In this document: piece by piece, positions 1 through 62,455 of the stretch
Layout of the letters: the number at the start of each line of letters is the position of its first letter
Position numbering within the stretch: position 1 is the stretch's first letter
From: a virus
Lineage: Duplodnaviria > Heunggongvirae > Uroviricota > Caudoviricetes
Virus record (IMG/VR): IMGVR_UViG_3300015177_000008
Span: 47,519-111,518 of that record
Length of the DNA: 64,000 nucleotides
Reading direction: 5' to 3' (one strand)
Position numbers and translations under genes: made by a program
The notes under the pieces: model-generated
Databases searched by the model: none
What the model was told of the DNA's origin: nothing
The model's input: the letters and a program-made list of their open reading frames with translations, nothing else

Positions 1-1537
1 CAGGTTTAAACGTCAGTTCAGTTTTGATCTGATCTTTCATTCCCGTGATTGGCTGTCCCTCGGCGTCTCGCAGAGACAGAACCAGCGGCTTTTGCGCACT
101 CCCGTTAGCAAGCATTTGGATACGGCTCTGGCCATCAAGCGTTAACGTAGTACGATCGGCGCTCATACCTGCTCCGGTAATGACCACCGCAGTCTGCACA
201 CGTTTCGAGGCATTGCCTTTGTTATCGTATGCAACCGCAGAGATCGCGTAATAATTGTCTTTGCCTGCACGATAAGCCGGGAGCGTTACTTGCCACTGGT
301 TACCCTGACCGGTAATTTTACCGCCTGCGGCCAGCAAAGACGGTGCTTCCCATTGCACATTTTTCAGGCCGTGAGTTGCTTTGCTGACCACGAGGCCAAG
401 AGACACCGTCTGCCCGCCCTTACCTTCAATACGGTCTGGCAAGGCAATACGGATCACCTCAGCTTTGCGATACTCAAGAACTATATTGTTATTACGTTCA
501 ACCAGATCATATCGGCTGCCTGCCAGTACCCGACGCTCGCGAATGCTGTCTGTATCGAGTTGTTTCTCCAGAGGCTCGCCAATCCGGTAGTTAACTTCCA
601 GGCCAAAGCGAGTGTCATTCTGACCGCTCTTGCCCTGTTTGTGCTCTGCACTCAGTGTCAGAAGAGGCACTGGCGTGTAATTCACTTCAGCGGTAATCGC
701 ATGTGGATCTTTCTGGCGTTTATCTTTACCAAACAGCCCAACTTCATCGCCATAATACTGTTCATACATCAGGCTTGCGCCAAGCTGCGGCCAGGCAGGT
801 AAATAACCCTCAGCACGAATATCCCAGCCATTCGCCGGGCGTTCCTGATAATCCTCAACATCCGGTGATTTTTTCCAGCCAGAAGCCCGGATATAACCAT
901 TGGCGCTCAGCTTAAGATAATCACGCCAGTATTCCGTACCAATACCAATGCGGGTATGACTACGAGATAAATCATGGTCAATAAAGGTATTCACCCCCGC
1001 CATCCAGTCATTACCTGAAAAATGACGCCAGCCAAAACCAATATTTGACTGAGTGCGATCGTCAGTGCGATGTATTGCCCCCTGAGTGAACAGCATATTT
1101 GTCGGCGTGTCATATATCGGATAAAGCATTTCCAGCGAAGAATCCTTCAGCGAGAAATCTTTATCGGCATTCAGTTTGACGCGCGCGGTGCCATATTTCC
1201 CGAGCCACTCCTGGATTTCCTGGGTGGCCTTAGCCGTAGCCATTCCGGTAACAAAGTTGCGAGTCGTATCGCTATCCGGCTGACTGCTTAAAAATTTACC
1301 GGCATTCGCGGCAACCGACGCGATATTTTTTTCTGTATTATTGTCAGTAGCAACCGCAGTATTTTCCGTACTTAGACGTGGCAAAGCCGCATTATGCGCT
1401 TGAGCTGTCATTGACGGTGTAAAAGTGACAGCTAATGGGAAAAGAACCTGAACAGAGATGTTTGCCCATGCCACACATCTAGCCAAGGCGGAATAGCGGA
1501 AACGTTGTTGTTTATAGGTTTTATTTAAACGTAACAT
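1..1537 (-). CDS. Intimin/invasin-family inverse autotransporter, N-terminal part; gene runs off the window start (partial)
   Basis: Minus-strand ORF from ATG at 1537 open to position 1 (not in track because no stop in window). Translation MLRLNKTYKQQRF... contains intimin/invasin beta-barrel-type motifs (YGTARVKLNADKDF, GIGTEYWRDYLKLSANGYIRASGW, GSRYDLVERNNNIVLEYRK). Confidence 0.7.
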   Translation of the reverse strand, partial: MLRLNKTYKQQRFRYSALARCVAWANISVQVLFPLAVTFTPSMTAQAHNAALPRLSTENTAVATDNNTEKNIASVAANAGKFLSSQPDSDTTRNFVTGMATAKATQEIQEWLGKYGTARVKLNADKDFSLKDSSLEMLYPIYDTPTNMLFTQGAIHRTDDRTQSNIGFGWRHFSGNDWMAGVNTFIDHDLSRSHTRIGIGTEYWRDYLKLSANGYIRASGWKKSPDVEDYQERPANGWDIRAEGYLPAWPQLGASLMYEQYYGDEVGLFGKDKRQKDPHAITAEVNYTPVPLLTLSAEHKQGKSGQNDTRFGLEVNYRIGEPLEKQLDTDSIRERRVLAGSRYDLVERNNNIVLEYRKAEVIRIALPDRIEGKGGQTVSLGLVVSKATHGLKNVQWEAPSLLAAGGKITGQGNQWQVTLPAYRAGKDNYYAISAVAYDNKGNASKRVQTAVVITGAGMSADRTTLTLDGQSRIQMLANGSAQKPLVLSLRDAEGQPITGMKDQIKTELTFKP

Positions 1538-2078
1538 TGACATAATTTCTTAATGAACGAGTTAACGAACATTTGCAACTGCGAGTAAAAGCATTTGCTT
1601 CCAGAAATATTTAGATTGGAGTGTCTATGCCCCCAACAGGGCCGCGAATGCTATCACAAACGAAAAAGTGCAACAACACATGAATTAACTGAGATTTAAT
1701 GATTGTTAGGCATCTATAACCAAAATGTTGCAACAACTTAAAATCAATGTTACTTGATAATGTATCCCAAATAACAGGAGGAGCTATTTCAGTACATGAG
1801 AGGATGATTATTCTAACAACATGGGAAGTAAAACATTTTTATTATTACATGATCCATAAATTAGAAATAAATGACCTAAGTCGTGAATAAAGCCTTTTAA
1901 GAAATAAAGTCAGCTCTATATCCAAAAAATAACTTTGAGATAATGAACACTATATCACATACCACATCAATTAATAACAACCTTCTACTTATATAACTTA
2001 GAAGTTGGTAGTTATTTATATAAATGCATTATAGTTTGCAAGTGTTTTTAAATGTTCATTTAACGATACTCATGATTT

Positions 2079-2567
2079 CTAATCAAAATTATTCAGTGCT
2101 TTTTTATTTATCATCTCGAACATTTTTAGTTCATCGTCAGATAATCCCTCCCAAACTTTCTTCATGATTATATTTTGCACACGTATCATTCTTTGTATAA
2201 ATAAAACTCCATCTGATGTTAAACATAAATTTTTACCTCGGCGATCGAGTTCATTATCAACACGTTTGATAAGGTTTTGCTTTTCTAAGATATCTGTAAT
2301 TCGCGTTATATTTGTTTTAGAAACCTGCAACAGGTTACTAATTTCAGATGGGGATAAACAATGACCATCAGTAAAATATAATAATGATAATGCCATAAAC
2401 ATGGTATTGTTTATTTTATGCTTCTCTAGCGCATCTGATATGACGTCCTGCATTTTATTGCTAATCCGGATACATAATTGCATTAGCAAATGCTCCTGAA
2501 CAGGATAATCTGTCTCTTTATTTTTTTGATAATCAAGTATTTTTTCTAGAAAAAGCACGTTTTTCAT
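2079..2567 (-). CDS. MarR-family transcriptional regulator
   Basis: 162 aa ORF with ATG at 2567; winged-helix MarR-like pattern (SPSEISNLLQVSKTNITRITDILEKQNLIKR...DRRGK); AT-rich gene flanked by AT-rich intergenic DNA. Confidence 0.55.
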   Translation of the reverse strand: MKNVLFLEKILDYQKNKETDYPVQEHLLMQLCIRISNKMQDVISDALEKHKINNTMFMALSLLYFTDGHCLSPSEISNLLQVSKTNITRITDILEKQNLIKRVDNELDRRGKNLCLTSDGVLFIQRMIRVQNIIMKKVWEGLSDDELKMFEMINKKALNNFD

Positions 2568-2741
2568 TGTTGTATCCGGTATTGAATAATCATCTCATAA
2601 AAACCATGTAGCCTGTGTGTGATATCTATGTCCCAATGAAACTGGTAAAATAAAGTATAGCAGTTCAAGATTCCTTGCGCCACCTGAATTTTCTACAGAT
2701 AATGCAAAACACATAGCAGTAAAACCTTTCGTTTATAAATT

Positions 2742-3041
2742 TTATTTTTTCCTATAAACATATAGTTCTCCATGCGCTTTCTTTCTGTCTCGGTGTATTC
2801 CCATTTCTTTTTCTATTCGTATCGTAGCTTTACGTAACTCTTTTGATGTGCTAACATCTTTGGCTGCAATGTTTTTTGGCACCGCCTGCTTCATGCAGCG
2901 GCGTATTTGTTCTCTAACATATATTCGTTGGTCTACCTGTCCTTCCTGTCGATAATCCATCAGTACTTCCTGCCAGCGAACAGCAGCCCTGCGCCATAGT
3001 CCTCTTTGCTCAAGATCTTCGGCCTTCTTGTCTCTAACCAT
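2742..3041 (-). CDS. PerC-like small transcriptional activator (putative)
   Basis: ATG at 3041 preceded by GGAGG; 99 aa basic protein with GLWRRAAVRW motif reminiscent of the PerC family. Track ORF 2742..3056 begins at an upstream TTG. Confidence 0.4.
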   Translation of the reverse strand: MVRDKKAEDLEQRGLWRRAAVRWQEVLMDYRQEGQVDQRIYVREQIRRCMKQAVPKNIAAKDVSTSKELRKATIRIEKEMGIHRDRKKAHGELYVYRKK

Positions 3042-3418
3042 TTCCCCTCCAAACAAACGTATGCTACAGATTAACTACCTAAAAATTGAGTTTAACACTA
3101 ACTCATGTAATTAATACTAATGCAAGAAAATATTCACTAATATTTTTATCTTTTAGTTATAAACTAAATTTACATGTGGCTGTTTTGCAAAATGTAGACT
3201 TCCTATATTTTTTATGAAATGATTAGGAAAATAAATTTATTTTATAGCCTTAACACTATGGTCAATACATTTCTTAACACCCAATGCCATCACGAATGAA
3301 CTAAGGAAAAGCGGAATGGCCTTTGACGTTAAAATGCTCTAACTGGAGGTTGTTCATGTGTTTTTCTCTTATCGTTTAGTTACTACATTCTTACACAAAC
3401 CAAGTAAGTGTTTACCTA

Positions 3419-5105
3419 TCATTTAACGCGTTTGAAAACGTATACGCTGACTGTGATCCCTGTGTCTTCAAACTCGTTGGTAAACGACTTCCCTCTGGCA
3501 TAAACGTAATTATCCATCGTCATCCAGTCCAGTATTGGCGCAGTGCCCGGCAATACTGCTACAAGACGCCCGCCGACTTTCAGATGCCCCAGCGCAGCCA
3601 GCGTGTGCTCTCTATGACGACCAAGCGAGTACGGCGGGTTCATAACGATTTTGTCGAACTGATAACCTGCGTTGTCCTCAGACCACTTTATGAAGTCGCA
3701 GCAAATCGTGTTCGTATACCCTTTTCCACGCAGGATATCAGCAAAGAGAGGTGCGATTTCTATGCAGGTAACATCTTCCAGATCGGCGTTAATATAGGCC
3801 AGAAGATCCCCACGTCCGGCTTGAGGCTCCAACAGCTTCTCACCAGGCTTCAATTCAGTGGCTCTTGCAACGTACTCAGCAATCAAGCGTGGGGTAGGGT
3901 AGAACTGGTGTGATTTTGTATCCGGTATTAAACCGGTAGCCACAATCGTATTTAGCGTATGGCCGATGTCATACGGGAACTGCCAGTGCTTTTTCTCCTG
4001 CACGCCGCCAATGAAGCTCAGTGTGCGCTCAAGCTCTTCCACCTGCGACTTCTGGAGAGCTGAATCAGAGAAGTACCATACTCCTTTGTCTTTGCTCAAT
4101 CGCCCGTCACGAAGCGCAGTGCGAACCGGGACGGAGATCGTCTTCTGGATTAGCCCGAACTGCTTTGGTGCCCGTGTTTTTTGGCGCTCTGCGGCATGGC
4201 GCGGGGATTGCTGCAGGCATACTGTAAGCCAGCACCTCATTCAACTTCCAGGCCACGTCAGGATGTATTTCAAAGTGAACGTTGCCGTTCTTGAACATCT
4301 TCACGCGCATCAGATTTCCATCGACGTTCATCCAGTCACCGGTCTGGCAGTCGTTTGCCCGATACGCAGCTGATAGCACCTCAGCAGTGCGGTTGATGGT
4401 AATAAATTCTTTGTGCGCGAAGAAATGAAGCAAAACACGCAGATCGTCGATATAGTCCTCTTTGCGATAGTTCACACTAACGCTGTCCCGCCAGAAATCA
4501 GAAATGCAGTCAGCGATTATCAGACGCTCGCTGAAACCGTTCGTCTTATTTGTCTTGTGCGCAGGACTCAGCGCCTTAAACAAGCCATACACGCGCTCGG
4601 AGAGATATTTGTGCCTGTCATTCAGCAAATTAAGCATCGTTGGTATGACCGTTTCTGCTTTGAACTCCGGTACACCAACGAACTCTTTAACCTTCATCTG
4701 ATAGCCGGTTCTGTCAGTTTTGATGACTTCCTGCTTGCCCTCGATAAATTGCTCACGCCACTCGTCGCGACGGGAAGCTGGCATGATCAGCAAAACGTTA
4801 GTCATATCCGTGACCTTCCTCCAGTACTCGGCCCAAATATTCTGTTTCACCCATTCCAGATCGACTTTATCCAACCAACCTCGATTTAAACGCGAGCGAT
4901 CTTCATCTGGTCGATGGTTTAGTCTCAGCAGGCGATTAATCATGTTGTGGCGTTCGTCGCCATAAACGAAGTCGTGTACCTGATACATGAAGTCGATCTC
5001 TTTCTCGCACTCGGCCACGATTTCGTGGATGACATTCATTTCCTGACGATAGTCGATAGCCGTGTTTGAGCTGGCATCGTCGATGATGGAAAGGGCTGTA
5101 TTCAT
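3419..5105 (-). pseudogene. SAM-dependent methyltransferase-like gene (NPPY motif, DUF4942-like), disrupted by a frameshift
   Basis: Two overlapping minus-strand ORFs in different frames (4107..5105 and 3419..4240). The downstream frame carries EPQAGRGDLL and IVMNPPYS motifs; the tail of the first and head of the second look like out-of-frame sequence. Confidence 0.5.
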
Positions 5106-5209
5106 AATTGCACCATTAAGAAAAGATTTGTTTAATAGTGCAATTATTTCAAAAAATGAAAAGGTACTAAATAGAAATTAACAGGCAATCCTTTAAATAA
5201 AGGTATTTG

Positions 5210-5824
5210 CTAATCATACTTTGAGGTATTTATAACCAGGATTTTGTTTGTATAAATCTTCTTAATATCCCATGTGACGTTACCGGAATACCATTGACCG
5301 TTATATACTTGGTTTCCAGTTGCACCGGTCATAGTTACATAGACAGGTCTGTCGTAATCGGTTCGTCTAAAGTTATAAACCCCAACCATAGCAGGCATTA
5401 CCGCACACGGATACCCCATATCTATTGTAAATTGAGGGTCAGAAATAGTGATAAGTTTCGCATCAAGGGGCATCATCTCACCGTGATACACCATTGCGCC
5501 TGCGCTGTTATACATGGCAATGCCATAGCCAGAATGTGGTAACACCATATCAGAAAAAGCATAAACTGTTATTGTTCCGGGGCTACCATTTACCTGATGC
5601 AATCTGAGAGCATTGTATCCGTTACTATGTTCATGAATAAACATCATGTTCGCCTTATTACTGCTTTTTATGAAGAAAAAGCATGATTTGTTTGATGGGA
5701 TTGATGTTTTAAAAACAGAACCTTTAGATGCAGACATTGTCCCTTTATTAATCAGATTTTGCGGAGTAAATTCAGGACTCATCCACAAACTTCCATCTGA
5801 TTGAGTAATTGACATCCCGAACAT
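5210..5824 (-). CDS. Hypothetical protein, AT-rich, Asn/Tyr/Gly-rich
   Basis: ATG at 5824 lies 2 nt after the stop of the upstream ORF; track ORF 5210..5881 starts at an upstream TTG. No recognisable motif. Confidence 0.4.
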   Translation of the reverse strand: MFGMSITQSDGSLWMSPEFTPQNLINKGTMSASKGSVFKTSIPSNKSCFFFIKSSNKANMMFIHEHSNGYNALRLHQVNGSPGTITVYAFSDMVLPHSGYGIAMYNSAGAMVYHGEMMPLDAKLITISDPQFTIDMGYPCAVMPAMVGVYNFRRTDYDRPVYVTMTGATGNQVYNGQWYSGNVTWDIKKIYTNKILVINTSKYD

Positions 5825-5826
5825 AA

Positions 5827-6108
5827 TTATCCCCAGTATGTGTATATGTAAGAACCAAGCCCCGTATATAAATTTGACCAACTAACCGTATTTCCATTAA
5901 TAGTAACATTTGGAACAGGTAAATTGATGTAGTTGTCGTTGTTAAGAGGCATTAATGACCACACGGCATGTAGTGATTTACCCGGTGGCGGATTAGAGTA
6001 CGTCTTAGAGCCTGATGATGCCGTAAACCGATCAAGAAAAAAAATAGGTGTAAGGAAGCCAGTAACGTTAATTCCTTTATTGTTGTAAATCCCTGTACCG
6101 TATGCCAT
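5827..6108 (-). CDS. Hypothetical protein, AT-rich, Asn/Gly/Thr-rich
   Basis: 93 aa ORF with ATG at 6108; directly followed by the 5210..5824 gene. Confidence 0.4.
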   Translation of the reverse strand: MAYGTGIYNNKGINVTGFLTPIFFLDRFTASSGSKTYSNPPPGKSLHAVWSLMPLNNDNYINLPVPNVTINGNTVSWSNLYTGLGSYIYTYWG

Positions 6109-6162
6109 TTTTCATCCTTGTTTTTATCAACATAATATGGCCGATCATGCGGCCATATCAGA

Positions 6163-6732
6163 TCAATTAGAGCTTTGAAAGGCTTTGTGTGGCTGTGTTG
6201 CGAGGTTATGTCGATGGCTTAACTCACGCATCATGTCTTCAAGGCGACTCTTTGTGTCGTCGAGCTGGTCGGCCATTGCTCCCAAAAGCTGACGAACGGC
6301 CATTGGATCGTCACTGTTTAGTGACGGCATTTTATAACCCGCCTTAGAAGACATCAGATTGAATGCAGACATCAACATTGTTAGAGAAAACTTAAGTCCG
6401 GCAATTTCACGATCTTTGCTGGCAATAATCGTCTCACTTTTGTTACCGTCATGAGTTCCTTGAGTCTCGCTCACCATATCCAAAGTCGCTTGCAACTTAT
6501 CAGCTCTCTCTTTTTCAGCAAGGTAATGAACGCCGAAATGATGTGCTAAAGCTACAACCTGAGTTGGTTCTTCAAAGGTGGAATTAAAATTAAGTACTGT
6601 AAACAGTCTCTCAAATATGGAAACGTCTTCTGTTCCCCGAACAATGCCTAACATTTTGACAAGTTCATTAGCATCCATTTCTTCGAATAGGGCGTTTTGT
6701 TCATCAGCTATTGCTTTGCATTTCTCGCACAT
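6163..6732 (-). CDS. Hypothetical protein (first gene with backbone-type 5' signals)
   Basis: 189 aa ORF; start in the conserved context AAGGAAAACACATG and preceded by a class-1 palindrome. Confidence 0.5.
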   Translation of the reverse strand: MCEKCKAIADEQNALFEEMDANELVKMLGIVRGTEDVSIFERLFTVLNFNSTFEEPTQVVALAHHFGVHYLAEKERADKLQATLDMVSETQGTHDGNKSETIIASKDREIAGLKFSLTMLMSAFNLMSSKAGYKMPSLNSDDPMAVRQLLGAMADQLDDTKSRLEDMMRELSHRHNLATQPHKAFQSSN

Positions 6733-6750
6733 GTGTTTTCCTTAATGCTT

Positions 6751-6764
6751 AAACAAGTTGTTTT
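6751..6764. promoter_or_regulatory. Class-1 palindrome AAACAA-N-TTGTTT (putative operator)
   Basis: aaacaagttgtttt, about 20 nt upstream of the 6163..6732 start on the minus strand. Confidence 0.45.
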
Positions 6765-6871
6765 CTTATGTGCTTTATTGTGATGTGGCATATAAGGGGA
6801 GCAAGCTAAACGTAAAGGTGCAAACTCTCTATTTTGGTCAACGAAACACAAGGGCCATTTGGCCCTTGTCA

Positions 6872-7030
6872 TTAACACGTTGCTTTACGGACTAGCGGAT
6901 AGGCGAAGTAGATCGCCAAACCAATGAGGACGCCATCAGAAATGACAGACATCATCTTTCCCGTGAAATCAACCAACACCGCCATCACCAGAAGAGCAAT
7001 GACGGTCACAAGCCGGAATCTCTCAAGCAT
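6872..7030 (-). CDS. Small membrane protein (52 aa)
   Basis: ATG overlaps the stop of the upstream gene (TAATG); hydrophobic MLERFRLVTVIALLVMAVLV...; below the track size cut-off. Confidence 0.3.
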   Translation of the reverse strand: MLERFRLVTVIALLVMAVLVDFTGKMMSVISDGVLIGLAIYFAYPLVRKATC

Positions 7031-7455
7031 TAGAGATAAGCATCCAGTGACAACTGAAGCGCCTGGGCGATCTTTTTCAGCGCCTGCTCTTCTTGTTCAC
7101 CAATGCCGTCCTGGTCGGCAATATCAAGGCACAGACACAGAACATCGACCGCCTCTGGAGTGCCCGCAATATCAGCCAGCTCACGCATAGCCTGTGCATT
7201 AGCGGAACGAGGGGACGCTTCGTAACGAGCACGGATATTGGCGCTCATTTGGGCAATTTCACCAGCAAACGGAGAAAACGCAGGCAGAGCTGCAATTGTT
7301 TTCTCAAGAATGGCAATTTCTTTTGCGTCACATGTGCCGTCGGCATAGGAGATCATGTACGCGCCCCACACGGTGGCCTCAACCGCATCACGGTTCTCCA
7401 TTTTTTTGACTTCAATAACAGCTTTACGAGTTTTCTTTTTGAAGAAACCTAACAT
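7030..7455 (-). CDS. Hypothetical protein
   Basis: 141 aa ORF; start context GGAAAACACATG; class-1 palindrome upstream. Confidence 0.5.
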   Translation of the reverse strand: MLGFFKKKTRKAVIEVKKMENRDAVEATVWGAYMISYADGTCDAKEIAILEKTIAALPAFSPFAGEIAQMSANIRARYEASPRSANAQAMRELADIAGTPEAVDVLCLCLDIADQDGIGEQEEQALKKIAQALQLSLDAYL

Positions 7456-7478
7456 GTGTTTTCCTTTTATTATTTGTC

Positions 7479-7493
7479 AAAACAAGTTGTTTT
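7479..7493. promoter_or_regulatory. Class-1 palindrome (putative operator)
   Basis: aaaacaagttgtttt upstream of the 7030..7455 start. Confidence 0.45.
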
Positions 7494-7548
7494 CTAGTTT
7501 CATATATTGCTTGCGCAAAGATGGTCAATGCATATGCACTAACAACCG

Positions 7549-7737
7549 TCAGAAATAACCAAGTACCGAACCGACTGGAAAAATAAAAATCCCAACTACA
7601 CGAGCCAAGGTCATGCCAGCCTGAAACTGGAGATCGCCAGAGCAAACAAGTTTTATAATGTTCGATACCCAACCGGCGGCCATGAGGGCCAGAATTGCCA
7701 GCCAAATTTTTCCAAAGTGATTTGAAAACCAGTTCAT
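7549..7737 (-). CDS. Small membrane protein (62 aa)
   Basis: Hydrophobic ORF; start overlaps the stop of 7734..7985 by 4 nt. Confidence 0.4.
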   Translation of the reverse strand: MNWFSNHFGKIWLAILALMAAGWVSNIIKLVCSGDLQFQAGMTLARVVGIFIFPVGSVLGYF

Positions 7738-7985
7738 ACAACCGCCTTAGTCACAGCATGATCCTGAGTAACTGGATGAACTTGAGGTATCGCATCCACC
7801 GCCATCCCATCCAGAGTGACAGGACGCTCCACTGGAGTGGTGGTAATTGTCGTCGACGAAGGTGTGGTGATGGATGAATCCGGCATCAAAAGGCTCTGAC
7901 CGGCTGGAACGGCTACCGTCGCCAGTGAAACTATAATGAGAACGTAGGCCATTGGTTTCAGCCTCTTTCTTTGAAAATTTTCCAT
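7734..7985 (-). CDS. Small secreted/membrane protein with Thr/Pro-rich tail (putative)
   Basis: N-terminal hydrophobic segment MAYVLIIVSLATVAVPAG; 4-nt overlap coupling to the next gene; lies entirely inside 7747..8241 in another frame. Confidence 0.35.
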   Translation of the reverse strand: MENFQRKRLKPMAYVLIIVSLATVAVPAGQSLLMPDSSITTPSSTTITTTPVERPVTLDGMAVDAIPQVHPVTQDHAVTKAVV

Positions 7986-8241
7986 CCGAACGGTCCTTGT
8001 TGTTTTTCTCCTTCACTAAAGGCCGTGCATTTTTCGCTTCACATGAAGAACTGGAGGTTACAATCGCCCCCACGTTCGCAACAACTGACGCTTGCTTATC
8101 TAAACGTGCCTTCAGCACCAGAACGGTAGTTTCCAATTCATCAAGACGTGACAGAAGGCGACCGCTAAATAATTCGGCCAAAATTTGACGTAAAGAACGA
8201 GGGCGTTTAGTTGCAGGAGTTAAAAAAAATTGACGTGCCAT
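7747..8241 (-). CDS. Hypothetical protein (C-terminal half possibly out of frame)
   Basis: N-terminal 85 aa look protein-like (coiled-coil); C-terminal part is low-complexity and overlaps 7734..7985. Confidence 0.35.
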   Translation of the reverse strand: MARQFFLTPATKRPRSLRQILAELFSGRLLSRLDELETTVLVLKARLDKQASVVANVGAIVTSSSSCEAKNARPLVKEKNNKDRSDGKFSKKEAETNGLRSHYSFTGDGSRSSRSEPFDAGFIHHHTFVDDNYHHSSGASCHSGWDGGGCDTSSSSSYSGSCCD

Positions 8242-8370
8242 GTGGACTCCATCCAGTGTCAGAAAGAGTTGCGGCTGGCGATTGCCAGCCGCCTTTCTCG
8301 TTCCATCCTGGAACTGTGTCTTACCGACACATTGTCATCCTGACGCCGATAAGATACATGATTTAACATA

Positions 8371-8390
8371 ATAGGTAAACACTTACTTAC
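8371..8390. promoter_or_regulatory. Class-2 AT-rich palindrome (ATARGTA...TACYTAT family)
   Basis: ataggtaaacacttacttac, overlapping the rnhA stop codon. Confidence 0.3.
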
Positions 8391-8980
8391 TGATTATTGT
8401 AAACAAAACCAATATCTTTCTTGTGAGGCGTATCTGCTGCGGAAAAAGCTGCGATCTTCGCCAGTCGATCACAGATTTCATTTTCACGATGCCCGGCGTG
8501 GCCTTTAACCCACTTCCAGCGAACATTATGTCGACTGGCAGCCTCATCCAGACGCTTCCACAGATCAACATTCTTTACTGGTTTTTTATCAGAAGTCATC
8601 CATCCATTACGTTTCCACCATTTCATCCACTGTGTCATGCCGTTTTTCAGATACTGGCTATCAGAGTGCAAAATAACGTTGCATGGATATTTCAAACGCT
8701 CCAGCCCGATAAGTGCCCCCATCATCTCCATGCGGTTATTGGTGGTGCTATGAAAACCATCTGAGAACTCGCGTTCCTCTCCACGATACTGGAGAACGAT
8801 ACCGTAACCGCCTGGGCCACCCGGATTTTTAAGGCAAGAGCCATCACTGAAGATTTTCACGGTTTTAAGCTGGGGATTGAACTCTACGACAGGCGTTGTG
8901 GGATTGGTGCGGGGAGAATTTTTGTTTTTGGCTTTTTTGCGAGTTTTTTCTTGCGATCGGGCTGGTGTCTTCGTCGTCAT
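8387..8980 (-). CDS. rnhA: Ribonuclease H
   Basis: ATG at 8980 with AGGAG upstream; RNase HI motifs ([32 protein letters not shown]). Track ORF extends upstream to 9034. Confidence 0.8.
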
Positions 8981-9039
8981 ATAAACTCCTGAATCAAGCG
9001 CCGCGCCGATTTTTTTCCTCGCGCGTGCGCACACGCGTG

Positions 9040-58027: not shown

Positions 58028-58795
58028 ATGGACGATTTATCGGTATACGCGAGATCATTGGATAAGGCTAAATACTATGTTTATTGTCTCTATGATACAG
58101 AAGACAAGATGAAAAGACCGTTTTACATAGGAAAAGGCAAATCGACTCGTTGTCTCGATCACATCAAGTATCCCGATGACTCTCCCAAATCCATGCGGAT
58201 CAAAGAACTTTTGGCTAATAAAAAATTAGGCATAGATATTCTTCGTCATGGTATGGATGAAACCACAGCCAAACTTGTTGAGGCGACATGCATCGACCTT
58301 ATGGGGGTCGGAGAGCTTACGAATAAGGTACGAGGAAGTGGTTCCATGATGGGCAGAATATCACTGGACGCCTACCATCACTTAGTGCTGCAAGAGGAAA
58401 CTGAAATTGCTCCTGAGCACGCCGGTCTTGCCTTCCTGCTAAACAGCACCTACAAGTCAGGAATGTCCGCTCTGGCATTATATGAAGCTACGCGTGGCGT
58501 ATGGGCAAAGGTTCCAAGAGACGAGAATCTCAAATATGCCTACGCTACATATGGTGGGCTGATAATGGAAGTTTATCAGATTGAATGCTGGGTCAAAGCC
58601 GGTTCTCAGCAGTACTTTACAAGGGATATAGCTCTTGGCCCCGACACAAAACGTTATGAATTTGTTGGCAGAATAGCCGATGAGCATATTAGAAAACTGT
58701 ATGTAGGCAAATTAATCAAGAAGCCACCAAGCTACGGTAGCCCTTTTGTGAAGGTTGGGGTGGTTAGGACTGAACATAGTGTTAGTGCGGCATAA
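58028..58795 (+). CDS. GIY-YIG endonuclease (free-standing, homing-endonuclease-like)
   Basis: GIY-YIG-like N-terminus YYVYCLYD...PFYIGKGKSTRCLDH; isolated plus-strand gene with its own terminator. Confidence 0.55.
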   Translation: MDDLSVYARSLDKAKYYVYCLYDTEDKMKRPFYIGKGKSTRCLDHIKYPDDSPKSMRIKELLANKKLGIDILRHGMDETTAKLVEATCIDLMGVGELTNKVRGSGSMMGRISLDAYHHLVLQEETEIAPEHAGLAFLLNSTYKSGMSALALYEATRGVWAKVPRDENLKYAYATYGGLIMEVYQIECWVKAGSQQYFTRDIALGPDTKRYEFVGRIADEHIRKLYVGKLIKKPPSYGSPFVKVGVVRTEHSVSAA

Positions 58796-58811: not shown

Positions 58812-58849
58812 ATGCATTGGCGCAATATACGCGCCAATGCATGATTTTT
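58812..58849. terminator. Bidirectional rho-independent terminator
   Basis: atgcattggcgc aatata gcgccaatgcat then gaTTTTTaa, between convergent genes. Confidence 0.6.
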
Positions 58850-59207
58850 AACCTTTCTTCATCAACTCTCGTTTGATTTCATCGGTACGCATCGTGACAT
58901 CGGCAGCGGTGATCGCCTCATTCAATTTCACGATGTCCTCGATTTCCTGCGGTGACTTCTCTGCCAGATGGAAAATGGCTGCTCGAATCACGTCAGAACG
59001 AGTGAACTTCTCGAAGCGAGGGATGAACTTCATCATCTCCAGCAGTTCGAAGTATTCGTCCTCCAGTGACATTGTGCGGCTTTTAATTTTCTCTTTGCCA
59101 CGAGTCGGGCGTCCCTGTGGTCTGACTGGTTGGCGCAAAGGAGTTGTGTTCTTAGCCGGTGCATCAGGCTCTTTGCGCTTTGCTAGGTCACCCATTTTCA
59201 TGGACAT
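58848..59207 (-). CDS. Small partition protein, ParG-like (putative)
   Basis: 119 aa basic protein immediately downstream of parA; RHH assignment not checked against sequence. Confidence 0.45.
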   Translation of the reverse strand: MSMKMGDLAKRKEPDAPAKNTTPLRQPVRPQGRPTRGKEKIKSRTMSLEDEYFELLEMMKFIPRFEKFTRSDVIRAAIFHLAEKSPQEIEDIVKLNEAITAADVTMRTDEIKRELMKKG

Positions 59208-59875
59208 TATTCTTCTTCCTCCAGACTCAACAGATAATCTACAAATTCTTCAAACTCGGCTTCCGCCTTTTTGTCGCGCTCGCTACCGGTCATTTCAAAG
59301 ATAGAACGACCAGACTCTTCCGCATCATCATAGACGTTGCGGTTATATAGATTGACTGGCGCAGACTCGATTCCAAACGTCTCAACAATCTCTTTAGCCG
59401 CCAGAATGCGAGACACTTGTGATGGCAAAGCCGGGCACTGGTTCATGACCGCGCGGACCTTCACTTTATCGTTTACATTGCGAACATTGTCGATAATAGG
59501 ATCGATGTCACGTAAAGATTTCAAATCACGACGCTTAGGACGCAGCGGGATAATGATAACGTCAGCCATCAGCATCGCTTGTCGCTGAATTTCGGAGTCG
59601 AAGCCACCAGCATCTACCACTACAAACTCAGCTCTACCCTGAAGCGATTTTAGGTGCTTAATGATGTCATCCTGAACGTATGCAAAAGGAATCAGCTCAA
59701 GGTCTTCGTTCTGTCGACGGTCTTCACACCAGCTCGTTGTCGTGCGCTGAATATCTATATCGGTAATATAAACCTTCTTCTTCTTATTGACTTTCAGGCA
59801 AACGGCAATTTGCTGGGCAACGGTGGATTTGCCAGGCCCGCCCTTTGTGCCGCCAACCACAAAGATCTTGGTCAT
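59207..59875 (-). CDS. parA: ParA-family partition ATPase (small, type Ib-like)
   Basis: Deviant Walker A GGTKGGPGKST; class-1 palindrome in its upstream region. Confidence 0.8.
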   Translation of the reverse strand: MTKIFVVGGTKGGPGKSTVAQQIAVCLKVNKKKKVYITDIDIQRTTTSWCEDRRQNEDLELIPFAYVQDDIIKHLKSLQGRAEFVVVDAGGFDSEIQRQAMLMADVIIIPLRPKRRDLKSLRDIDPIIDNVRNVNDKVKVRAVMNQCPALPSQVSRILAAKEIVETFGIESAPVNLYNRNVYDDAEESGRSIFEMTGSERDKKAEAEFEEFVDYLLSLEEEE

Positions 59876-59910
59876 TGGAGAGTTCCCTTTGCGTATATAA
59901 TTATCGTCTG

Positions 59911-59924
59911 AAACAACTTGTTTT
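59911..59924. promoter_or_regulatory. Class-1 palindrome (putative operator) upstream of parA
   Basis: aaacaacttgtttt preceded by TATAAG. Confidence 0.45.
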
Positions 59925-60021
59925 CTTATATGTGATATAGCCTAAATGCCTACGGCTACGGTGTAAAGGTTAAATGGTAGGTTGTGGTTAACAATTGGCA
60001 ATCATTGCTTGTATTTGCCTG

Positions 60022-60073
60022 TTGAAAAAAGTAACAATGACCTCTATATTACAAGTACGGTGATATGCCGTAC
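60022..60073 (+). promoter_or_regulatory. Sigma70-like promoter plus palindromic operator of the toxin-antitoxin operon
   Basis: TTGAAA - 17 nt - TATATT followed by palindrome gtacgg tgatat gccgtac. Confidence 0.5.
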
Positions 60074-60193
60074 ACAATTTGATAATGCACACGTAATGGG
60101 CTATAGCCTTTTAAAGTAATTTTTGAGTCGAAAACTCAGTTTGAACAGAGGAGATTGATGGCCTTCCTACATCACGGCCATCAGGAGGAATAC

Positions 60194-60463
60194 ATGTCAG
60201 CACTAAAAAAGCAGCGCATCGATTTGAGATTAACCGATGACGATAAAAGCATCATCGAGGAAGCTGCCGCAATGTCTAACCAGAGCATTACTCAGTTTAT
60301 GGTTAGCAGTGCATCTGAACGTGCCGTGAAAGTTATAGAGCAACACCGTAGACTAGTTCTGAATGAAGAATCCTGGAATCTGGTTATGGACGCTATAAGC
60401 AATCCTCCGGCACCGAACGATAAGCTGAAACGAGCTGCTAATCGTCTGAAAAGCATGGAGTAG
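60194..60463 (+). CDS. DUF1778-type antitoxin (TacA-like)
   Basis: ATG at 60194 after AGGAGG; 89 aa MSALKKQRIDLRLTDDDKSIIEEAA...; directly upstream of a GNAT gene. Track ORF starts upstream. Confidence 0.65.
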   Translation: MSALKKQRIDLRLTDDDKSIIEEAAAMSNQSITQFMVSSASERAVKVIEQHRRLVLNEESWNLVMDAISNPPAPNDKLKRAANRLKSME

Positions 60464-60470
60464 TTTACTC

Positions 60471-60992
60471 GTGAGCAATACGACGATAGAGATTTTCTCT
60501 GGAGAGAAAGATTATGATCTAAACGGTTTTGATTGCGGCGAAGAGTCACTAAACGCCTTTTTAGCCAACCACTTAAAAAGGCAGCATGAGGGAAAAATTC
60601 TTCGTGCTTATGTGCTTTGCACTCAAGAAGAAAGGCCAAAAGTGTTAGGGTATTACACTTTGTCAGGTAGTTGTTTTGAAAAGGAGTCCTTACCTTCACG
60701 AAGCAAACAAAAGAAGGTTCCTTATCGGAATGTTCCAAGTGTTACTTTGGGTAGGCTGGCTTTGGACAAGTCCCTTCAAGGTCAAGGATTTGGCTCAATG
60801 CTTGTAACACATGCAATGCGCGTTGTGTACAATGCATCTCTTGCTGTAGGCATTCATGGACTTTTCGTTGAGGCGTTAAATGACAAAGCCAAGGCGTTTT
60901 ATAAAAGTTTAGGCTTTATCCAGCTGGTTGGTAACAACGAGCGTTCTTTGTTCTATCCTACAAAATCTATCGAAAAATTGTTCGAAGAATAA
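60471..60992 (+). CDS. GNAT-family acetyltransferase toxin (TacT-like)
   Basis: 173 aa with GNAT core (QGQGFGSMLVTHAM...); GTG start 8 nt after the antitoxin stop; hairpin gttcccctca tt tgaggggaac follows. Confidence 0.7.
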   Translation: MSNTTIEIFSGEKDYDLNGFDCGEESLNAFLANHLKRQHEGKILRAYVLCTQEERPKVLGYYTLSGSCFEKESLPSRSKQKKVPYRNVPSVTLGRLALDKSLQGQGFGSMLVTHAMRVVYNASLAVGIHGLFVEALNDKAKAFYKSLGFIQLVGNNERSLFYPTKSIEKLFEE

Positions 60993-61160
60993 TGTGTTCC
61001 CCTCATTTGAGGGGAACTTCGACATCACCAACCACAAACCCTCTCTCCCATCGTATTGTGAAAAAGGATTTGGCGTTCGGTTTCTTCAGTCATTACATCA
61101 TTATTGCTGATATAGATAGGCTCAGCTCCATCGCAGAACAATACGCTGGCGGTTTGTGGT

Positions 61161-61412
61161 TTAATGACGCACCCACTTATCATACAACTCACGATGAACG
61201 GCAGAAGCATCTTTCTGACGTATTTTATTGCTCGTCTCATTCACCACTTCCACTGTGCTTTGAAGTCGTTTTCTGTCTTCCTGTTTTGCCTTCTCTTCCA
61301 TTGCTCGTCGCGCCGCATTTCCGCCCATCGTGTAAGCGCCGACCAGAACGAAAAGAACGGCAGCCAGCGTAATCAAAGCAACTTTTAGCTTTGTCATCAG
61401 GCTGCCTAGCAT
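61161..61412 (-). CDS. Membrane protein with N-terminal TM helix and charged coiled region
   Basis: 83 aa; architecture like an i-spanin or Rz-type protein but short. Confidence 0.35.
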   Translation of the reverse strand: MLGSLMTKLKVALITLAAVLFVLVGAYTMGGNAARRAMEEKAKQEDRKRLQSTVEVVNETSNKIRQKDASAVHRELYDKWVRH

Positions 61413-61413
61413 A

Positions 61414-62106
61414 TTAGACCATCCCTTTCTGGTGTTTTCTTACCTGCGACCAGGCAATGAATCCTGCCACAACAATAGTGGCAATACCGAAGATGATGCG
61501 TACTGTATCCCCGCTAGAGATATGACCTTGTGCCTTATCCATAGCAGCGGAAACCTGCGGCATAACATCGGCAAGCTGCGCCAGACCAATACCTGCTGTA
61601 ACAGTTGCGCCAGCGGTTTCTTTAGTTACAGGAACAGCCTTCACGGTTTTCACCGGCTTAACGACGCCAGCTCGACGCAGACCTTCCTCAATAACTTCTG
61701 CCGTATACCAGGTGTTCAGCGTTTTTAGCGGGCCTCGGCCATTCTCGTGGCGAATGATTGCCTCAACCAAAGGTCGAAGGATGTCGTAATCATGCAGATC
61801 GATGATCATGTCTGCGGTTACACCAACGGCTTTAGACACCTCATTAATGTAGGCGTCAGTATTGTTTTCATTCGGCGGTGCCCAGCGTTCAATAACTTCA
61901 CGAATGGTATCGATACTTGAGCCGTCTTTTGCGCGACGTTTATCGTGGTAGGTAATTAGAGTCACCGCCAGCGCACGAATCCCCCAAACAGGGTCTTTAA
62001 ACGTGCAAAAGCGCGGTTCGTCTGGATTCGCAACCAGACCTTGCCACGGTGATCCTTTATCCAGATTACCGGGGTTATTATTACGAATGCCTCTCGGAGT
62101 CTTCAT
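61414..62106 (-). CDS. Hypothetical protein with C-terminal TM helix
   Basis: ATG at 62106 after AGGAGAT; N-terminal motif GIRNNNPGNL; C-terminal hydrophobic anchor. Confidence 0.4.
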   Translation of the reverse strand: MKTPRGIRNNNPGNLDKGSPWQGLVANPDEPRFCTFKDPVWGIRALAVTLITYHDKRRAKDGSSIDTIREVIERWAPPNENNTDAYINEVSKAVGVTADMIIDLHDYDILRPLVEAIIRHENGRGPLKTLNTWYTAEVIEEGLRRAGVVKPVKTVKAVPVTKETAGATVTAGIGLAQLADVMPQVSAAMDKAQGHISSGDTVRIIFGIATIVVAGFIAWSQVRKHQKGMV

Positions 62107-62119
62107 CCTTGATCTCCTG

Positions 62120-62455
62120 TTATTGCAGTCCACTTTTTACGCCATACGCGGCTAACCCCAAAAGCAGTGCGGTAATAATGAACGACGTTATTTTAGAAAC
62201 AATGCCGCCAAAGAACCCACTTGAGATGGAGTCCAACCGGTTAAGGAGTTTGTCCAGATTGGAGTGTTGAATACTATGTTGCGCCGGGGTCATATCACCA
62301 AAGTAGGTTTTCAGCTGATCGTTGACCTCCTGGCCAATTTCTTCACGTAGCTCTTTACCTAATTTGCCGACAACCTCCCGAGCAACGATCGCGGCAATGC
62401 GCTCAACTTGCTCTGTTGTTACGCCCGCCATCTCGTTCGACATATTTTCCTCCAT
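62120..62455 (-). CDS. Hypothetical protein with C-terminal TM helix
   Basis: 111 aa ORF. Confidence 0.35.
   Translation of the reverse strand: MEENMSNEMAGVTTEQVERIAAIVAREVVGKLGKELREEIGQEVNDQLKTYFGDMTPAQHSIQHSNLDKLLNRLDSISSGFFGGIVSKITSFIITALLLGLAAYGVKSGLQ

What the first reader, a model, noticed from the sequence alone, without database searches (positions are those of the whole stretch)
60022..61017. DUF1778 antitoxin plus GNAT acetyltransferase toxin operon with palindromic operator
A canonical TacAT/AtaRT-type addiction module next to the partition operon, consistent with plasmid-style maintenance of the element.
Basis: partly seen in the sequence, partly recalled or inferred. Interest (0 to 1): 0.4.

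Follow-up and report, generated by a model that had tools for sequence, protein, structure and literature searches.

The report
AtaRT/KacAT-type toxin-antitoxin cassette on phage-plasmid
This is an ordinary two-gene toxin-antitoxin module with its own self-repressing promoter, closely related to the well-studied AtaR-AtaT and KacA-KacT pairs and already annotated in public records, sitting as an optional cassette between the partition gene and the lysis genes of an SSU5-like E. coli phage-plasmid.

Summary
Window 60022-61017 holds a sigma-70-like promoter (60022-50), a palindrome GTACGG-N7-CCGTAC (60055-73), an 89-aa DUF1778/RHH antitoxin gene (60194-60463), a 173-aa GNAT toxin gene (60471-60992, GTG start) and a stable hairpin (60996-61017).

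The proteins are 76% and 69% identical to E. coli O157 AtaR and AtaT, and match KacA and KacT about as well. Catalytic, acetyl-CoA, tRNA-contact and DNA-reading residues are kept. The palindrome has the half-sites and spacing of the DNA crystallised with KacAT, and also occurs upstream of ataRT. It lies where transcription should start.

The window is an SSU5-like phage-plasmid, 99.3% identical to phage Cyrano/pLF82. Compared with SSU5, the module is a 1,050-bp accessory cassette (59983-61032) between parA and the spanin genes. 145 PLSDB plasmids (140 Escherichia) and 152 of 5,426 complete E. coli genomes carry it. Both genes are under purifying selection.

Cyrano's record already calls it a "KacT acetyltransferase-type toxin" with an antitoxin, and a 2023 paper lists the pair as expressed in the lysogen. 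Family and mechanism are secure. The addiction role is inferred, not shown. It is more precisely AtaRT/KacAT (clade A) than TacAT. Novelty is nil and interest is low.

The parts
59983..61032 (+). The whole accessory cassette (promoter, operator, leader, antitoxin, toxin, hairpin). SSU5 has no counterpart to this stretch.
   Evidence: blastn of the window against the SSU5 locus L002: homology runs 58850-59982 (86%) and resumes at 61033-62197 (81%). SSU5 has two unrelated hypothetical genes in between.
60022..60050 (+). Sigma-70-like promoter, TTGAAA (-35), 17-nt spacer, TATATT (-10).
   Evidence: 10 of 12 matches. Both hexamers are invariant across cassette alleles that are 90-100% identical overall (alignment A1). 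The function as a promoter is inferred.
60055..60074 (.). Palindromic operator GTACGG-N7-CCGTAC(A), lying over the expected transcription start.
   Evidence: Unique in the window, with 0 expected by chance. It has the same half-sites and 7-bp spacer as the KacAT crystal DNA AAATGTACGGTTATTAACCGTACATGA (PMC6698736). The same motif is found upstream of O157 ataRT, of a plasmid homologue, and of the Cyrano and ET350 copies. The arms are invariant while the spacer varies among alleles.
60075..60193 (+). Long 5' leader (about 135 nt from the predicted start site) containing three conserved islands: palindrome GGCTATAGCC (60099-60108), small hairpin TGAGT-N5-ACTCA (60124-60138), and hairpin TGATGGCC-N12-GGCCATCA (60156-60183) abutting the Shine-Dalgarno AGGAGG (60183-60188).
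   Evidence: The leader as a whole does not fold better than shuffles (z = -0.48). The function of the islands is unknown. Chromosomal ataRT has only about 27 nt between operator and start codon.
60194..60463 (+). Antitoxin gene, 89 aa, ribbon-helix-helix DUF1778/TacA1 family, an AtaR/KacA orthologue-like protein.
   Evidence: Pfam PF08681 6.3e-26. KacA 5zgn_A 4.6e-42 and AtaR 6ajm_C 9.6e-41. 76% identical to AtaR. DNA-reading residues R8, D10 and R12 are kept. dN/dS = 0.02 against the 90% alleles. A 1-nt indel in the 90% alleles rules out the upstream ATG at 60158 as a conserved start.
60471..60992 (+). Toxin gene, 173 aa, GNAT aminoacyl-tRNA acetyltransferase of the AtaT/KacT type, GTG start.
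   Evidence: AtaT 6gts_A 1.4e-79 and KacT 5zgn_C 3.9e-75. 69% identical to AtaT without gaps. G108 and Y144 are kept, as are 14 of 17 AtaT residues named as tRNA-contacting, acetyl-CoA-binding or catalytic, most of them tested by mutagenesis. dN/dS = 0.07-0.15.
60996..61017 (.). GC-rich hairpin between the convergent toxin gene and the Rz1 spanin gene. It is the likely transcription stop for one or both units.
   Evidence: flags it as terminator-like on the minus strand; 9-bp stem, -17.3 kcal/mol, z = -3.9. There is no U-run after it on the plus strand, so termination of the TA transcript here is inferred only.
59207..59875 (-). Neighbour, not part of the module: parA partition ATPase, transcribed divergently.
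   Evidence: Pfam MipZ/AAA_31/CbiA/ParA. NCBIfam ParA_partition 2.6e-33, below its cut-off. PHROG 164 ParA-like 4.3e-51.

Best explanation
This is a type II toxin-antitoxin operon of the GNAT/DUF1778 family, AtaRT/KacAT branch, carried as an optional cassette by an SSU5-like E. coli phage-plasmid.

By homology, the toxin homodimer uses acetyl-CoA to acetylate the alpha-amino group of charged tRNAs. For this clade that means Gly-tRNA and tRNAs carrying hydrophobic amino acids, including Met-tRNAfMet. The result is a block of translation and arrest of growth.

The antitoxin dimerises through its N-terminal ribbon-helix-helix. Its C-terminus wraps the toxin, blocking the acetyl-CoA site and toxin dimerisation. 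The toxin-antitoxin2-antitoxin2-toxin hexamer sits on the GTACGG-N7-CCGTAC palindrome over the transcription start and represses the operon. Excess toxin is expected to lift that repression (conditional cooperativity, as shown for KacAT).

While the phage-plasmid is present, antitoxin is replenished. In a cell that loses it, the less stable antitoxin would decay and the toxin would stop growth. This would favour retention of the low-copy prophage-plasmid alongside its ParA system.

Shown here: gene content, family membership at residue level, operator identity, cassette boundaries, distribution and purifying selection. Taken from the literature: expression in a lysogen. Inferred: toxicity, tRNA targets, hexamer formation, autoregulation and the maintenance role.
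For: - Sequence matches to solved AtaT, AtaR, KacT and KacA. 69% and 76% identity to the O157 AtaT and AtaR over full length without gaps.
- Toxin residues kept: acetyl-CoA glycine G108, catalytic Y144, and F30, H34, R37, S76, S78, K79, K81, K82, P84, Y85, R95 and K165. R71K and K77R are conservative changes (one search read against PMC7595197).
- Antitoxin residues kept: R8, D10, R12, which read the operator in KacA (one search read against PMC6698736).
- Operator: same half-sites and spacing as the KacAT crystal DNA and as the palindrome upstream of ataRT and of a plasmid homologue. It is unique in the window, placed 4 nt after the -10 hexamer, and its arms are invariant while its spacer varies.
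- The element is extrachromosomal. The cassette is found in 145 PLSDB plasmids, mostly about 105-115 kb and non-mobilizable, and the window is 99.3% identical to phage Cyrano/pLF82.
- Purifying selection on both genes.
- CYRAN_26 and CYRAN_27 are transcribed 35- and 60-fold above the prophage background in LF82 (PMC9928086).
- AtaT and KacT acetylate similar sets of aa-tRNAs in vivo (PMC9177977; PMC7595197).
Against: - No experiment on this exact module was found in the searched literature, so toxicity, neutralisation and plasmid stabilisation are untested.
- Two AtaT residues that contact tRNA differ (R40E, N41G), so the tRNA range could differ from AtaT.
- The hairpin after the toxin gene has no U-tract on the plus strand.
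- SSU5 and many relatives do without the cassette, so it is not essential for maintenance. The element also carries ParA and, according to the Cyrano annotation, other TA pairs.
- A toxin allele with G148D, four residues after the catalytic Tyr, occurs in two related plasmids. That could mean toxicity is sometimes attenuated.
Confidence: 0.9

Rival explanations
1. Same molecular machine, different biological role. The cassette is a lysogenic-conversion ('moron') gene pair that protects the host-plus-prophage against other phages or competing elements by abortive infection, or that promotes stress tolerance or persistence. It would not serve mainly as a post-segregational killer.
For: - The cassette sits in a variable accessory slot, not in the conserved backbone.
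- On the other side of the par genes lies a GIY-YIG protein that matches the PADLOC defence model PD-T4-3 at 1.3e-23, so the par operon is flanked by accessory or defence cargo.
- The pair is listed among expressed morons of Cyrano.
- KacT is reported to give antibiotic tolerance (abstracts).
Against: - Neither protein matches any PADLOC defence model.
- No evidence was found that AtaRT/KacAT-type modules defend against phage.
- The location on a low-copy plasmid next to parA is the classic setting for addiction modules.
Confidence: 0.3
2. The GNAT protein is not a toxin. It would be a small-molecule or protein acetyltransferase, for example a resistance or housekeeping enzyme, and the DUF1778 protein would merely be its transcriptional regulator.
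For: - GNAT is a very broad superfamily, and NCBIfam gives only sub-threshold hits to RimI, MshD and similar.
- In one related plasmid (pTIC, MF554642) the same slot carries aac(6')-Ib-cr, a drug-acetylating GNAT, in place of most of the module.
Against: - 69% full-length identity to AtaT, including the residues whose mutation abolishes AtaT toxicity and tRNA binding.
- The partner is 76% identical to AtaR, including the C-terminal toxin-wrapping segment.
- The operator is shared with two experimentally proven TA operons.
- The aac gene of pTIC is a replacement, not a homologue of the toxin (only 34% of the query is covered, by the flanks).
Confidence: 0.03
3. The module is a decaying or attenuated remnant. 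It would be autoregulated and expressed, but with a toxin too weak or too poorly translated (GTG start, distant GGAG) to have any effect.
For: - The toxin has a GTG start with a weak, distant ribosome-binding site.
- The G148D allele in two relatives.
Against: - dN/dS is 0.07-0.15 for the toxin over dS up to 0.47, and all seven copies examined have intact ORFs with the same GTG start.
- Low toxin translation is normal for type II TA operons (general knowledge).
- The window's own allele has G148 and all key residues.
Confidence: 0.07

Closest known systems
AtaR-AtaT of E. coli O157:H7 (chromosomal, between livJ and panM; PDB 6gts, 6ajm, 6ajn)
   Same: - Gene order and sizes match (88/175 aa against 89/173 aa).
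- Antitoxin is 76% and toxin 69% identical, without gaps.
- G108, Y144 and most tRNA-contact residues are kept.
- The GTACGG-N7-CCGTAC palindrome lies just upstream.
   Different: - DNA identity is only 66%, so this is a distinct allele family and not a recent copy.
- It is located on a phage-plasmid, not the chromosome.
- The distance from operator to start codon is about 120 nt here against about 27 nt in ataRT.
- Toxin residues R40 and N41 of AtaT are E and G here.
- The left arm of the palindrome is 6 bp rather than 7 bp in this allele (AGTACGG against TGTACGG).
KacA-KacT of Klebsiella pneumoniae HS11286 (PDB 5zgn complex with operator DNA; 5xun)
   Same: - KacA is the best PDB match for the antitoxin (4.6e-42). 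The toxin matches KacT at 3.9e-75.
- R8, D10, R12 and M65, I68 of KacA are kept.
- The operator half-sites and spacing equal those of the crystallised 27-mer.
- KacAT's palindrome also spans the transcription start.
   Different: - KacA R77 and Q70 are K77 and N70 here, as in AtaR.
- KacAT is chromosomal in Klebsiella; this cassette is on an Escherichia phage-plasmid.
- The spacer sequence differs (TGATATG against TTATTAA).
TacA-TacT (Salmonella) and other clade B/D GNAT-DUF1778 pairs (ItaRT, AtaT2, GmvAT)
   Same: Same superfamily and the same two-gene architecture. The antitoxin matches the same Pfam family (TacA1/DUF1778).
   Different: - They are much more distant. TacT-type structures match only at about 1e-19 to 1e-20, against 1e-79 for AtaT.
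- Those clades have narrow (Gly) or Ile/Leu-biased tRNA specificity (PMC9177977), whereas the AtaT/KacT clade is broad.
CYRAN_26/CYRAN_27 of Escherichia phage Cyrano (= pLF82) and the RefSeq 'GNAT family N-acetyltransferase / DUF1778 domain-containing protein' pairs on SSU5-like plasmids
   Same: - This is the same cassette at 99.3% DNA identity (100% in NZ_CP117002.1), in the same position between parA and Rz1.
- It is already annotated as a KacT-type toxin plus putative antitoxin, and reported as expressed in the lysogen.
   Different: The Cyrano record starts the antitoxin at the upstream ATG (window 60158; 101 aa). RefSeq, homology and a frame-breaking indel in related alleles support 60194 (89 aa).

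Membership tests
GNAT/DUF1778 type II toxin-antitoxin, AtaRT/KacAT branch (clade A) | Bicistronic operon: a small antitoxin gene first, the toxin gene immediately downstream on the same strand. | tested here: met
   Antitoxin 60194-60463 and toxin 60471-60992 are both on the plus strand with a 7-nt gap.
GNAT/DUF1778 type II toxin-antitoxin, AtaRT/KacAT branch (clade A) | The antitoxin belongs to DUF1778/TacA1, with an N-terminal ribbon-helix-helix and a C-terminal toxin-binding segment. | tested here: met
   PF08681 at 90.6 bits against a cut-off of 21, covering residues 8-86. Full-length alignment to KacA and AtaR.
GNAT/DUF1778 type II toxin-antitoxin, AtaRT/KacAT branch (clade A) | GNAT toxin with the acetyl-CoA-binding glycine (AtaT G108) and the catalytic tyrosine (AtaT Y144). 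| tested here: met
   G108 and Y144 are present and invariant in alignment A2. Their roles are from PMC7595197.
GNAT/DUF1778 type II toxin-antitoxin, AtaRT/KacAT branch (clade A) | Basic tRNA acceptor-stem binding surface (AtaT helices alpha1 and alpha3, Y85, R95, K165). | tested here: met
   14 of 17 named residues are identical, 2 are conservative changes (R71K, K77R), and R40E and N41G differ (one search read).
GNAT/DUF1778 type II toxin-antitoxin, AtaRT/KacAT branch (clade A) | Closest relatives are AtaT/KacT rather than TacT, ItaT or AtaT2. | tested here: met
   E = 1e-79 and 4e-75 for AtaT and KacT. The next group of solved GNAT toxins matches at 1e-21 or weaker.
GNAT/DUF1778 type II toxin-antitoxin, AtaRT/KacAT branch (clade A) | Palindromic operator over the transcription start, read by antitoxin R8, D10 and R12. 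| tested here: met
   GTACGG-N7-CCGTAC at 60055-60073, 4 nt after the -10 hexamer. It has the half-sites and spacing of the KacAT crystal DNA and of the ataRT upstream palindrome. R8, D10 and R12 are kept. Binding itself was not tested.
GNAT/DUF1778 type II toxin-antitoxin, AtaRT/KacAT branch (clade A) | The toxin arrests growth, the cognate antitoxin neutralises it, and aminoacyl-tRNAs become N-acetylated. | not testable with these tools
   This needs expression assays and LC/MS. No published test of this exact pair was found.
GNAT/DUF1778 type II toxin-antitoxin, AtaRT/KacAT branch (clade A) | Toxin-antitoxin2-antitoxin2-toxin heterohexamer. | not tested
   Expected from 70-76% identity to the crystallised complexes. 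No complex modelling was run.
Plasmid addiction (post-segregational killing) module | Carried on an extrachromosomal, low-copy replicon. | tested here: met
   The window is 99-100% identical to plasmids of about 108 kb and to phage Cyrano/pLF82. 145 PLSDB plasmids hold the cassette.
Plasmid addiction (post-segregational killing) module | The antitoxin is less stable than the toxin, and loss of the replicon kills or arrests segregants and so raises apparent stability. | not testable with these tools
   This needs plasmid-loss and protein-stability assays.
Known anti-phage defence systems (PADLOC-DB 2.0) | The proteins match a model of a catalogued defence system. | tested here: not met
   No PADLOC hit for either protein at E <= 0.01.

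The most novel reading that the evidence does not exclude
The phage-plasmid cassette and the chromosomal ataRT may cross-talk. A matching chromosomal locus was found in about 30% of complete E. coli genomes (1,626 chromosomal places in 5,426 genomes; all sampled ones were annotated ataRT).

Both loci share the GTACGG-N7-CCGTAC operator and the DNA-reading residues R8, D10 and R12, and the antitoxins are 76% identical. Chromosomal AtaR could therefore repress the phage-plasmid module, or even neutralise its toxin, acting as an anti-addiction locus. The reverse is also possible, so acquiring or losing an SSU5-like phage-plasmid could modulate a host toxin.

Separately, the unusually long, partly conserved leader with a hairpin abutting the ribosome-binding site could add a post-transcriptional control that chromosomal ataRT lacks.

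Cross-neutralisation between chromosomal and plasmid GNAT-RHH pairs has a precedent in Klebsiella (PMC9431474).
Probability: 0.2. Interest if true: 0.4.

Novelty: already known. Interest (0 to 1): 0.12.

Why it matters
It matters little beyond correct annotation.

- The module helps explain how SSU5-like phage-plasmids such as pLF82/Cyrano of the Crohn's-associated strain LF82 may persist as low-copy plasmids.
- It marks the parA-to-lysis junction as an exchangeable cargo slot. The same slot holds unrelated genes in SSU5 and a fluoroquinolone/aminoglycoside acetyltransferase gene in one plasmid.
- The family, its structure, its operator logic and its tRNA-acetylating chemistry are already established. 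This exact cassette is already annotated and was reported as expressed.

Tried and rejected
- **Upstream start codon.** ATG 60158 has its own GAGGAG and is used in the Cyrano record for a 101-aa antitoxin. I rejected it as the conserved start. The 90-92% alleles carry a 1-nt insertion between 60158 and 60194 that breaks the frame and they have a degraded Shine-Dalgarno. AtaR and KacA align from M1 at 60194, and RefSeq uses 60194.
- **Structured RNA in the leader or cassette.** The Rfam E-value scan of 59800-61200 gave only sub-threshold chance hits. The leader fold has z = -0.48.
- **Conserved islands in the leader.** With effectively two allele groups, the longest substitution-free runs (21-29 nt at about 15% divergence) are only marginally longer than chance by my rough estimate. 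They are recorded as unexplained, not claimed.
- **A second operator.** There is no other GTACGG-N7-CCGTAC site with up to 2 mismatches anywhere in the window. The CTACGGCTACGG at about 59950 lies in SSU5-conserved backbone that exists without the module, so it is not taken as an AtaR-type site.
- **Defence-system membership.** No PADLOC hit for either TA protein.
- **Pfam on the two SSU5 genes that fill the same slot.** No hits.
- **Not run, as unnecessary.** Structure prediction and the large protein-database searches were skipped, given about 70% identity to solved structures.
Full report
**What is there.**

- Promoter scan: the best site is TTGAAA-17-TATATT at 60022-60050 on the plus strand.
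- Palindrome: four bases after the -10 hexamer lies GTACGG-TGATATG-CCGTAC at 60055-60073. The seventh base of the right arm, A at 60074, also matches the known consensus. The exact pattern GTACGG-N7-CCGTAC occurs once in the 64-kb window and in none of 100 dinucleotide-preserving shuffles. Even with two mismatches allowed there is no second site.
- Antitoxin ORF: after a leader of about 120 nt comes AGGAGG, then ATG at 60194, opening an 89-codon ORF that ends at 60463.
- Toxin ORF: seven bases later a GTG at 60471 opens a 173-codon ORF that ends at 60992.
- Hairpin: a 9-bp GC-rich hairpin occupies 60996-61017 (-17.3 kcal/mol, z = -3.9).

**What the proteins are.** The 89-aa protein matches Pfam TacA1/DUF1778 at 6.3e-26, 90.6 bits against a cut-off of 21. 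Among solved structures it matches KacA (5zgn_A, 4.6e-42) and AtaR (6ajm_C, 9.6e-41) over its full length.

The 173-aa protein matches four GNAT Pfam families. Among solved structures it matches AtaT (6gts_A, 1.4e-79) and KacT (5zgn_C, 3.9e-75). The next group of GNAT toxins, including the TacT-type structures, matches at 1e-21 or weaker.

I fetched the E. coli O157:H7 chromosomal ataRT locus. Against it, the antitoxin is 76% identical and the toxin 69% identical, with no gaps.

I then read the alignment against published mutagenesis of AtaT (PMC7595197).
- Kept: G108 (acetyl-CoA), Y144 (catalysis), F30, H34, R37, S76, S78, K79, K81, K82, P84, Y85, R95 and K165.
- Conservative changes: R71K and K77R.
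- Different: R40E and N41G.

For KacA, R8, D10 and R12 read the operator bases, and R8A or R12A abolish binding (PMC6698736). All three are kept here. Of the KacA residues needed for neutralisation (M65, I68, Q70, R77), M65 and I68 are kept. Positions 70 and 77 are N and K, as in AtaR.

**The operator.** The DNA crystallised with the KacA4KacT2 hexamer is 5'-AAATGTACGGTTATTAACCGTACATGA-3' (PMC6698736), that is TGTACGG-N7-CCGTACA. The window has aGTACGG-N7-CCGTACA, which is the same half-sites and the same spacing.

The same motif lies upstream of three other loci:
- O157 ataRT, TGTACGGTGACATACCGTACA;
- a more distant GNAT/DUF1778 pair on plasmid p98201;
- the Cyrano and ET350 copies of this cassette.

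Cassette alleles are 90-100% identical overall. Across them the -35, the -10 and both arms are invariant while the 7-bp spacer changes (TGATATG against TAAATTG). In one allele the left arm is the full TGTACGG (alignment A1).

The KacAT palindrome is reported to span the transcription start. Here the arms begin 4 nt after the -10 hexamer, which is the same arrangement. I therefore accept the palindrome as the autoregulatory operator by homology. Binding itself is untested.

**Context.** The window is an SSU5-like phage-plasmid. The region is 99.3% identical to Escherichia phage Cyrano (OV696614), which shares its 108,379-bp length with the LF82 plasmid NC_011917. It is 100% identical to plasmid NZ_CP117002.1.

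The gene order is as follows:
- helicase and hypothetical genes;
- a 119-aa gene and parA on the minus strand (58848-59875);
- the TA pair on the plus strand;
- convergent Rz1, Rz, endolysin, holin and tail-fibre genes on the minus strand.

SSU5 itself lacks the module. Homology to SSU5 runs up to 59982 and resumes at 61033, and SSU5 has two unrelated hypothetical genes in between. So 59983-61032 is a self-contained accessory cassette holding the promoter, operator, both genes and the hairpin.

In PLSDB, 368 plasmids match a query that includes the parA-proximal backbone. Only 145 hold the cassette. Of these, 140 are Escherichia and 131 are non-mobilizable; the listed ones are mostly 105-115 kb.

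Among 5,426 complete E. coli genomes, 152 carry at least 80% of the cassette. A further 1,626 chromosomal places match at only about 66% DNA identity, and all the sampled ones were annotated ataRT. The cassette is thus a distinct lineage and not a recent copy of ataRT.

**Selection and allele structure.** Comparing the window with alleles from six other loci:
- the antitoxin shows dN/dS of about 0.02 (12-13 synonymous against 1 non-synonymous change);
- the toxin shows 0.07-0.15, with dS up to 0.47;
- all copies are intact and all use the GTG start.

Alleles are mosaic. ESBL242 pairs the '90%' antitoxin allele with the '99%' toxin allele, and pLAO7 does the reverse, which indicates recombination within the cassette.

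**Prior knowledge.** The Cyrano record already annotates CYRAN_26 as 'KacT Acetyltransferase-type toxin' and CYRAN_27 as 'putative antitoxin'. Misson et al. 2023 (PMC9928086) list both among expressed 'morons' of the LF82 prophages, at 35- and 60-fold above the local prophage background. They name the pair KacT-CYRAN27. RefSeq annotates the pair as a GNAT family N-acetyltransferase and a DUF1778 or TacA-family antitoxin. I found no functional study of this particular pair.

**Mechanism.** This is inferred by homology. AtaT and KacT belong to clade A of GNAT toxins and acetylate similar, fairly broad sets of aminoacyl-tRNAs in vivo: Gly plus hydrophobic residues, including Met (PMC9177977; PMC7595197). 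The antitoxin blocks acetyl-CoA binding and toxin dimerisation, and the T-A2-A2-T hexamer binds the operator. Excess toxin releases the DNA, which is conditional cooperativity (PMC6698736).

The likely role is post-segregational arrest of cells that lose the element, complementing ParA. The reasons are that the cassette sits on a low-copy phage-plasmid next to parA, is expressed in the lysogen and is under purifying selection. That role is not shown.

A defence or tolerance role is a live alternative. The cassette is optional cargo, and a PD-T4-3-like defence gene lies on the other side of the par genes. Against this, neither TA protein matches any PADLOC model.

**Differences from the textbook loci.**
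1. The replicon is a phage-plasmid, not the chromosome.
2. The leader is long. The operator lies about 120 nt from the start codon, against about 27 nt in ataRT. It contains three islands that are invariant between the diverged alleles: GGCTATAGCC, TGAGT-N5-ACTCA, and TGATGGCC-N12-GGCCATCA abutting the Shine-Dalgarno. The leader as a whole does not fold unusually well (z = -0.48), and Rfam finds nothing.
3. The hairpin after the toxin gene lacks a plus-strand U-tract and may mainly serve the convergent lysis operon.

**Verdict.** The module is already known and annotated, so interest is low.

Noticed in passing
window 58028-58795 (+): A 255-aa GIY-YIG protein (Pfam LEM-3-like GIY-YIG) matches the PADLOC anti-phage defence model PD-T4-3 at 1.3e-23 over nearly its full length. 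It lies just beyond the par genes. SSU5 has different genes in that position, so the par operon is flanked on both sides by exchangeable cargo.
   Followed up: partly
window 58848-59207 (-): The 119-aa gene directly downstream of parA (start and stop codons overlap) is annotated 'RelE/ParE putative toxin' in the Cyrano record. It has no Pfam, NCBIfam or PADLOC support for that label, only PHROG 5111 of unknown function. Its position suggests the centromere-binding partner of ParA instead.
   Followed up: partly
window 60158-60193; L001 4259-4564: The Cyrano record starts the antitoxin at an upstream in-frame ATG (101 aa, with the extension MAFLHHGHQEEY). A 1-nt insertion in the 90-92% alleles breaks that frame, so the extension is not conserved. 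RefSeq uses 60194.
   Followed up: yes
window 60095-60183 (leader of the operon): Three sequence islands are invariant between alleles that otherwise differ by about 15% in the leader: AATGGGCTATAGCC (a perfect 10-bp palindrome GGCTATAGCC), TTTGAGTCGAAAACTCAGTTT (a small hairpin), and TGATGGCC-N12/13-GGCCATCA next to the Shine-Dalgarno. Chromosomal ataRT has no such leader. Their function is unknown, and the statistics are weak because there are only two effective allele groups.
   Followed up: partly
L008 (MF554642.1 pTIC) 2501-3550, equivalent to window 59983-61032: In this SSU5-like plasmid the same slot keeps the cassette's promoter, leader and first 38 codons of the antitoxin. The rest of the module is replaced by aac(6')-Ib-cr, a fluoroquinolone/aminoglycoside acetyltransferase, presumably driven by the TA promoter. 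The record is labelled as a clone of an uncultured bacterium, so an engineered origin cannot be excluded.
   Followed up: no
L006 789-1310 and L010 589-1110 (toxin genes of pLAO7 and MINF_8D plasmid 3): The '96%' toxin allele carries G148D, four residues after the catalytic Tyr144, at a position that is glycine in AtaT and in the other cassette alleles (the p98201 homologue L005 also has G). It may be an attenuated toxin variant.
   Followed up: no
L009, L006, L007 compared with window 60194-60992: Alleles of the two genes are shuffled between plasmids. ESBL242 has the divergent antitoxin allele with the window-type toxin, and pLAO7 has the opposite combination. This implies recombination between the antitoxin and toxin genes within the cassette.
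   Followed up: partly
E. coli genome search: 1,925 matching records fall in 1,854 genomes. Up to about 70 genomes therefore carry two matching loci, for example chromosomal ataRT plus the phage-plasmid cassette. The two share operator half-sites and DNA-reading residues, so cross-regulation is conceivable. Exact co-occurrence was not counted.
   Followed up: no
L004 (NZ_CP100967.1, 324-kb plasmid) 1-9021: The cassette and its SSU5-type neighbours (helicase, parA, lysis genes, tail genes) lie inside a 324-kb plasmid. This suggests a cointegrate of a phage-plasmid with a larger plasmid. A macro-domain protein gene sits among the tail genes there.
   Followed up: no
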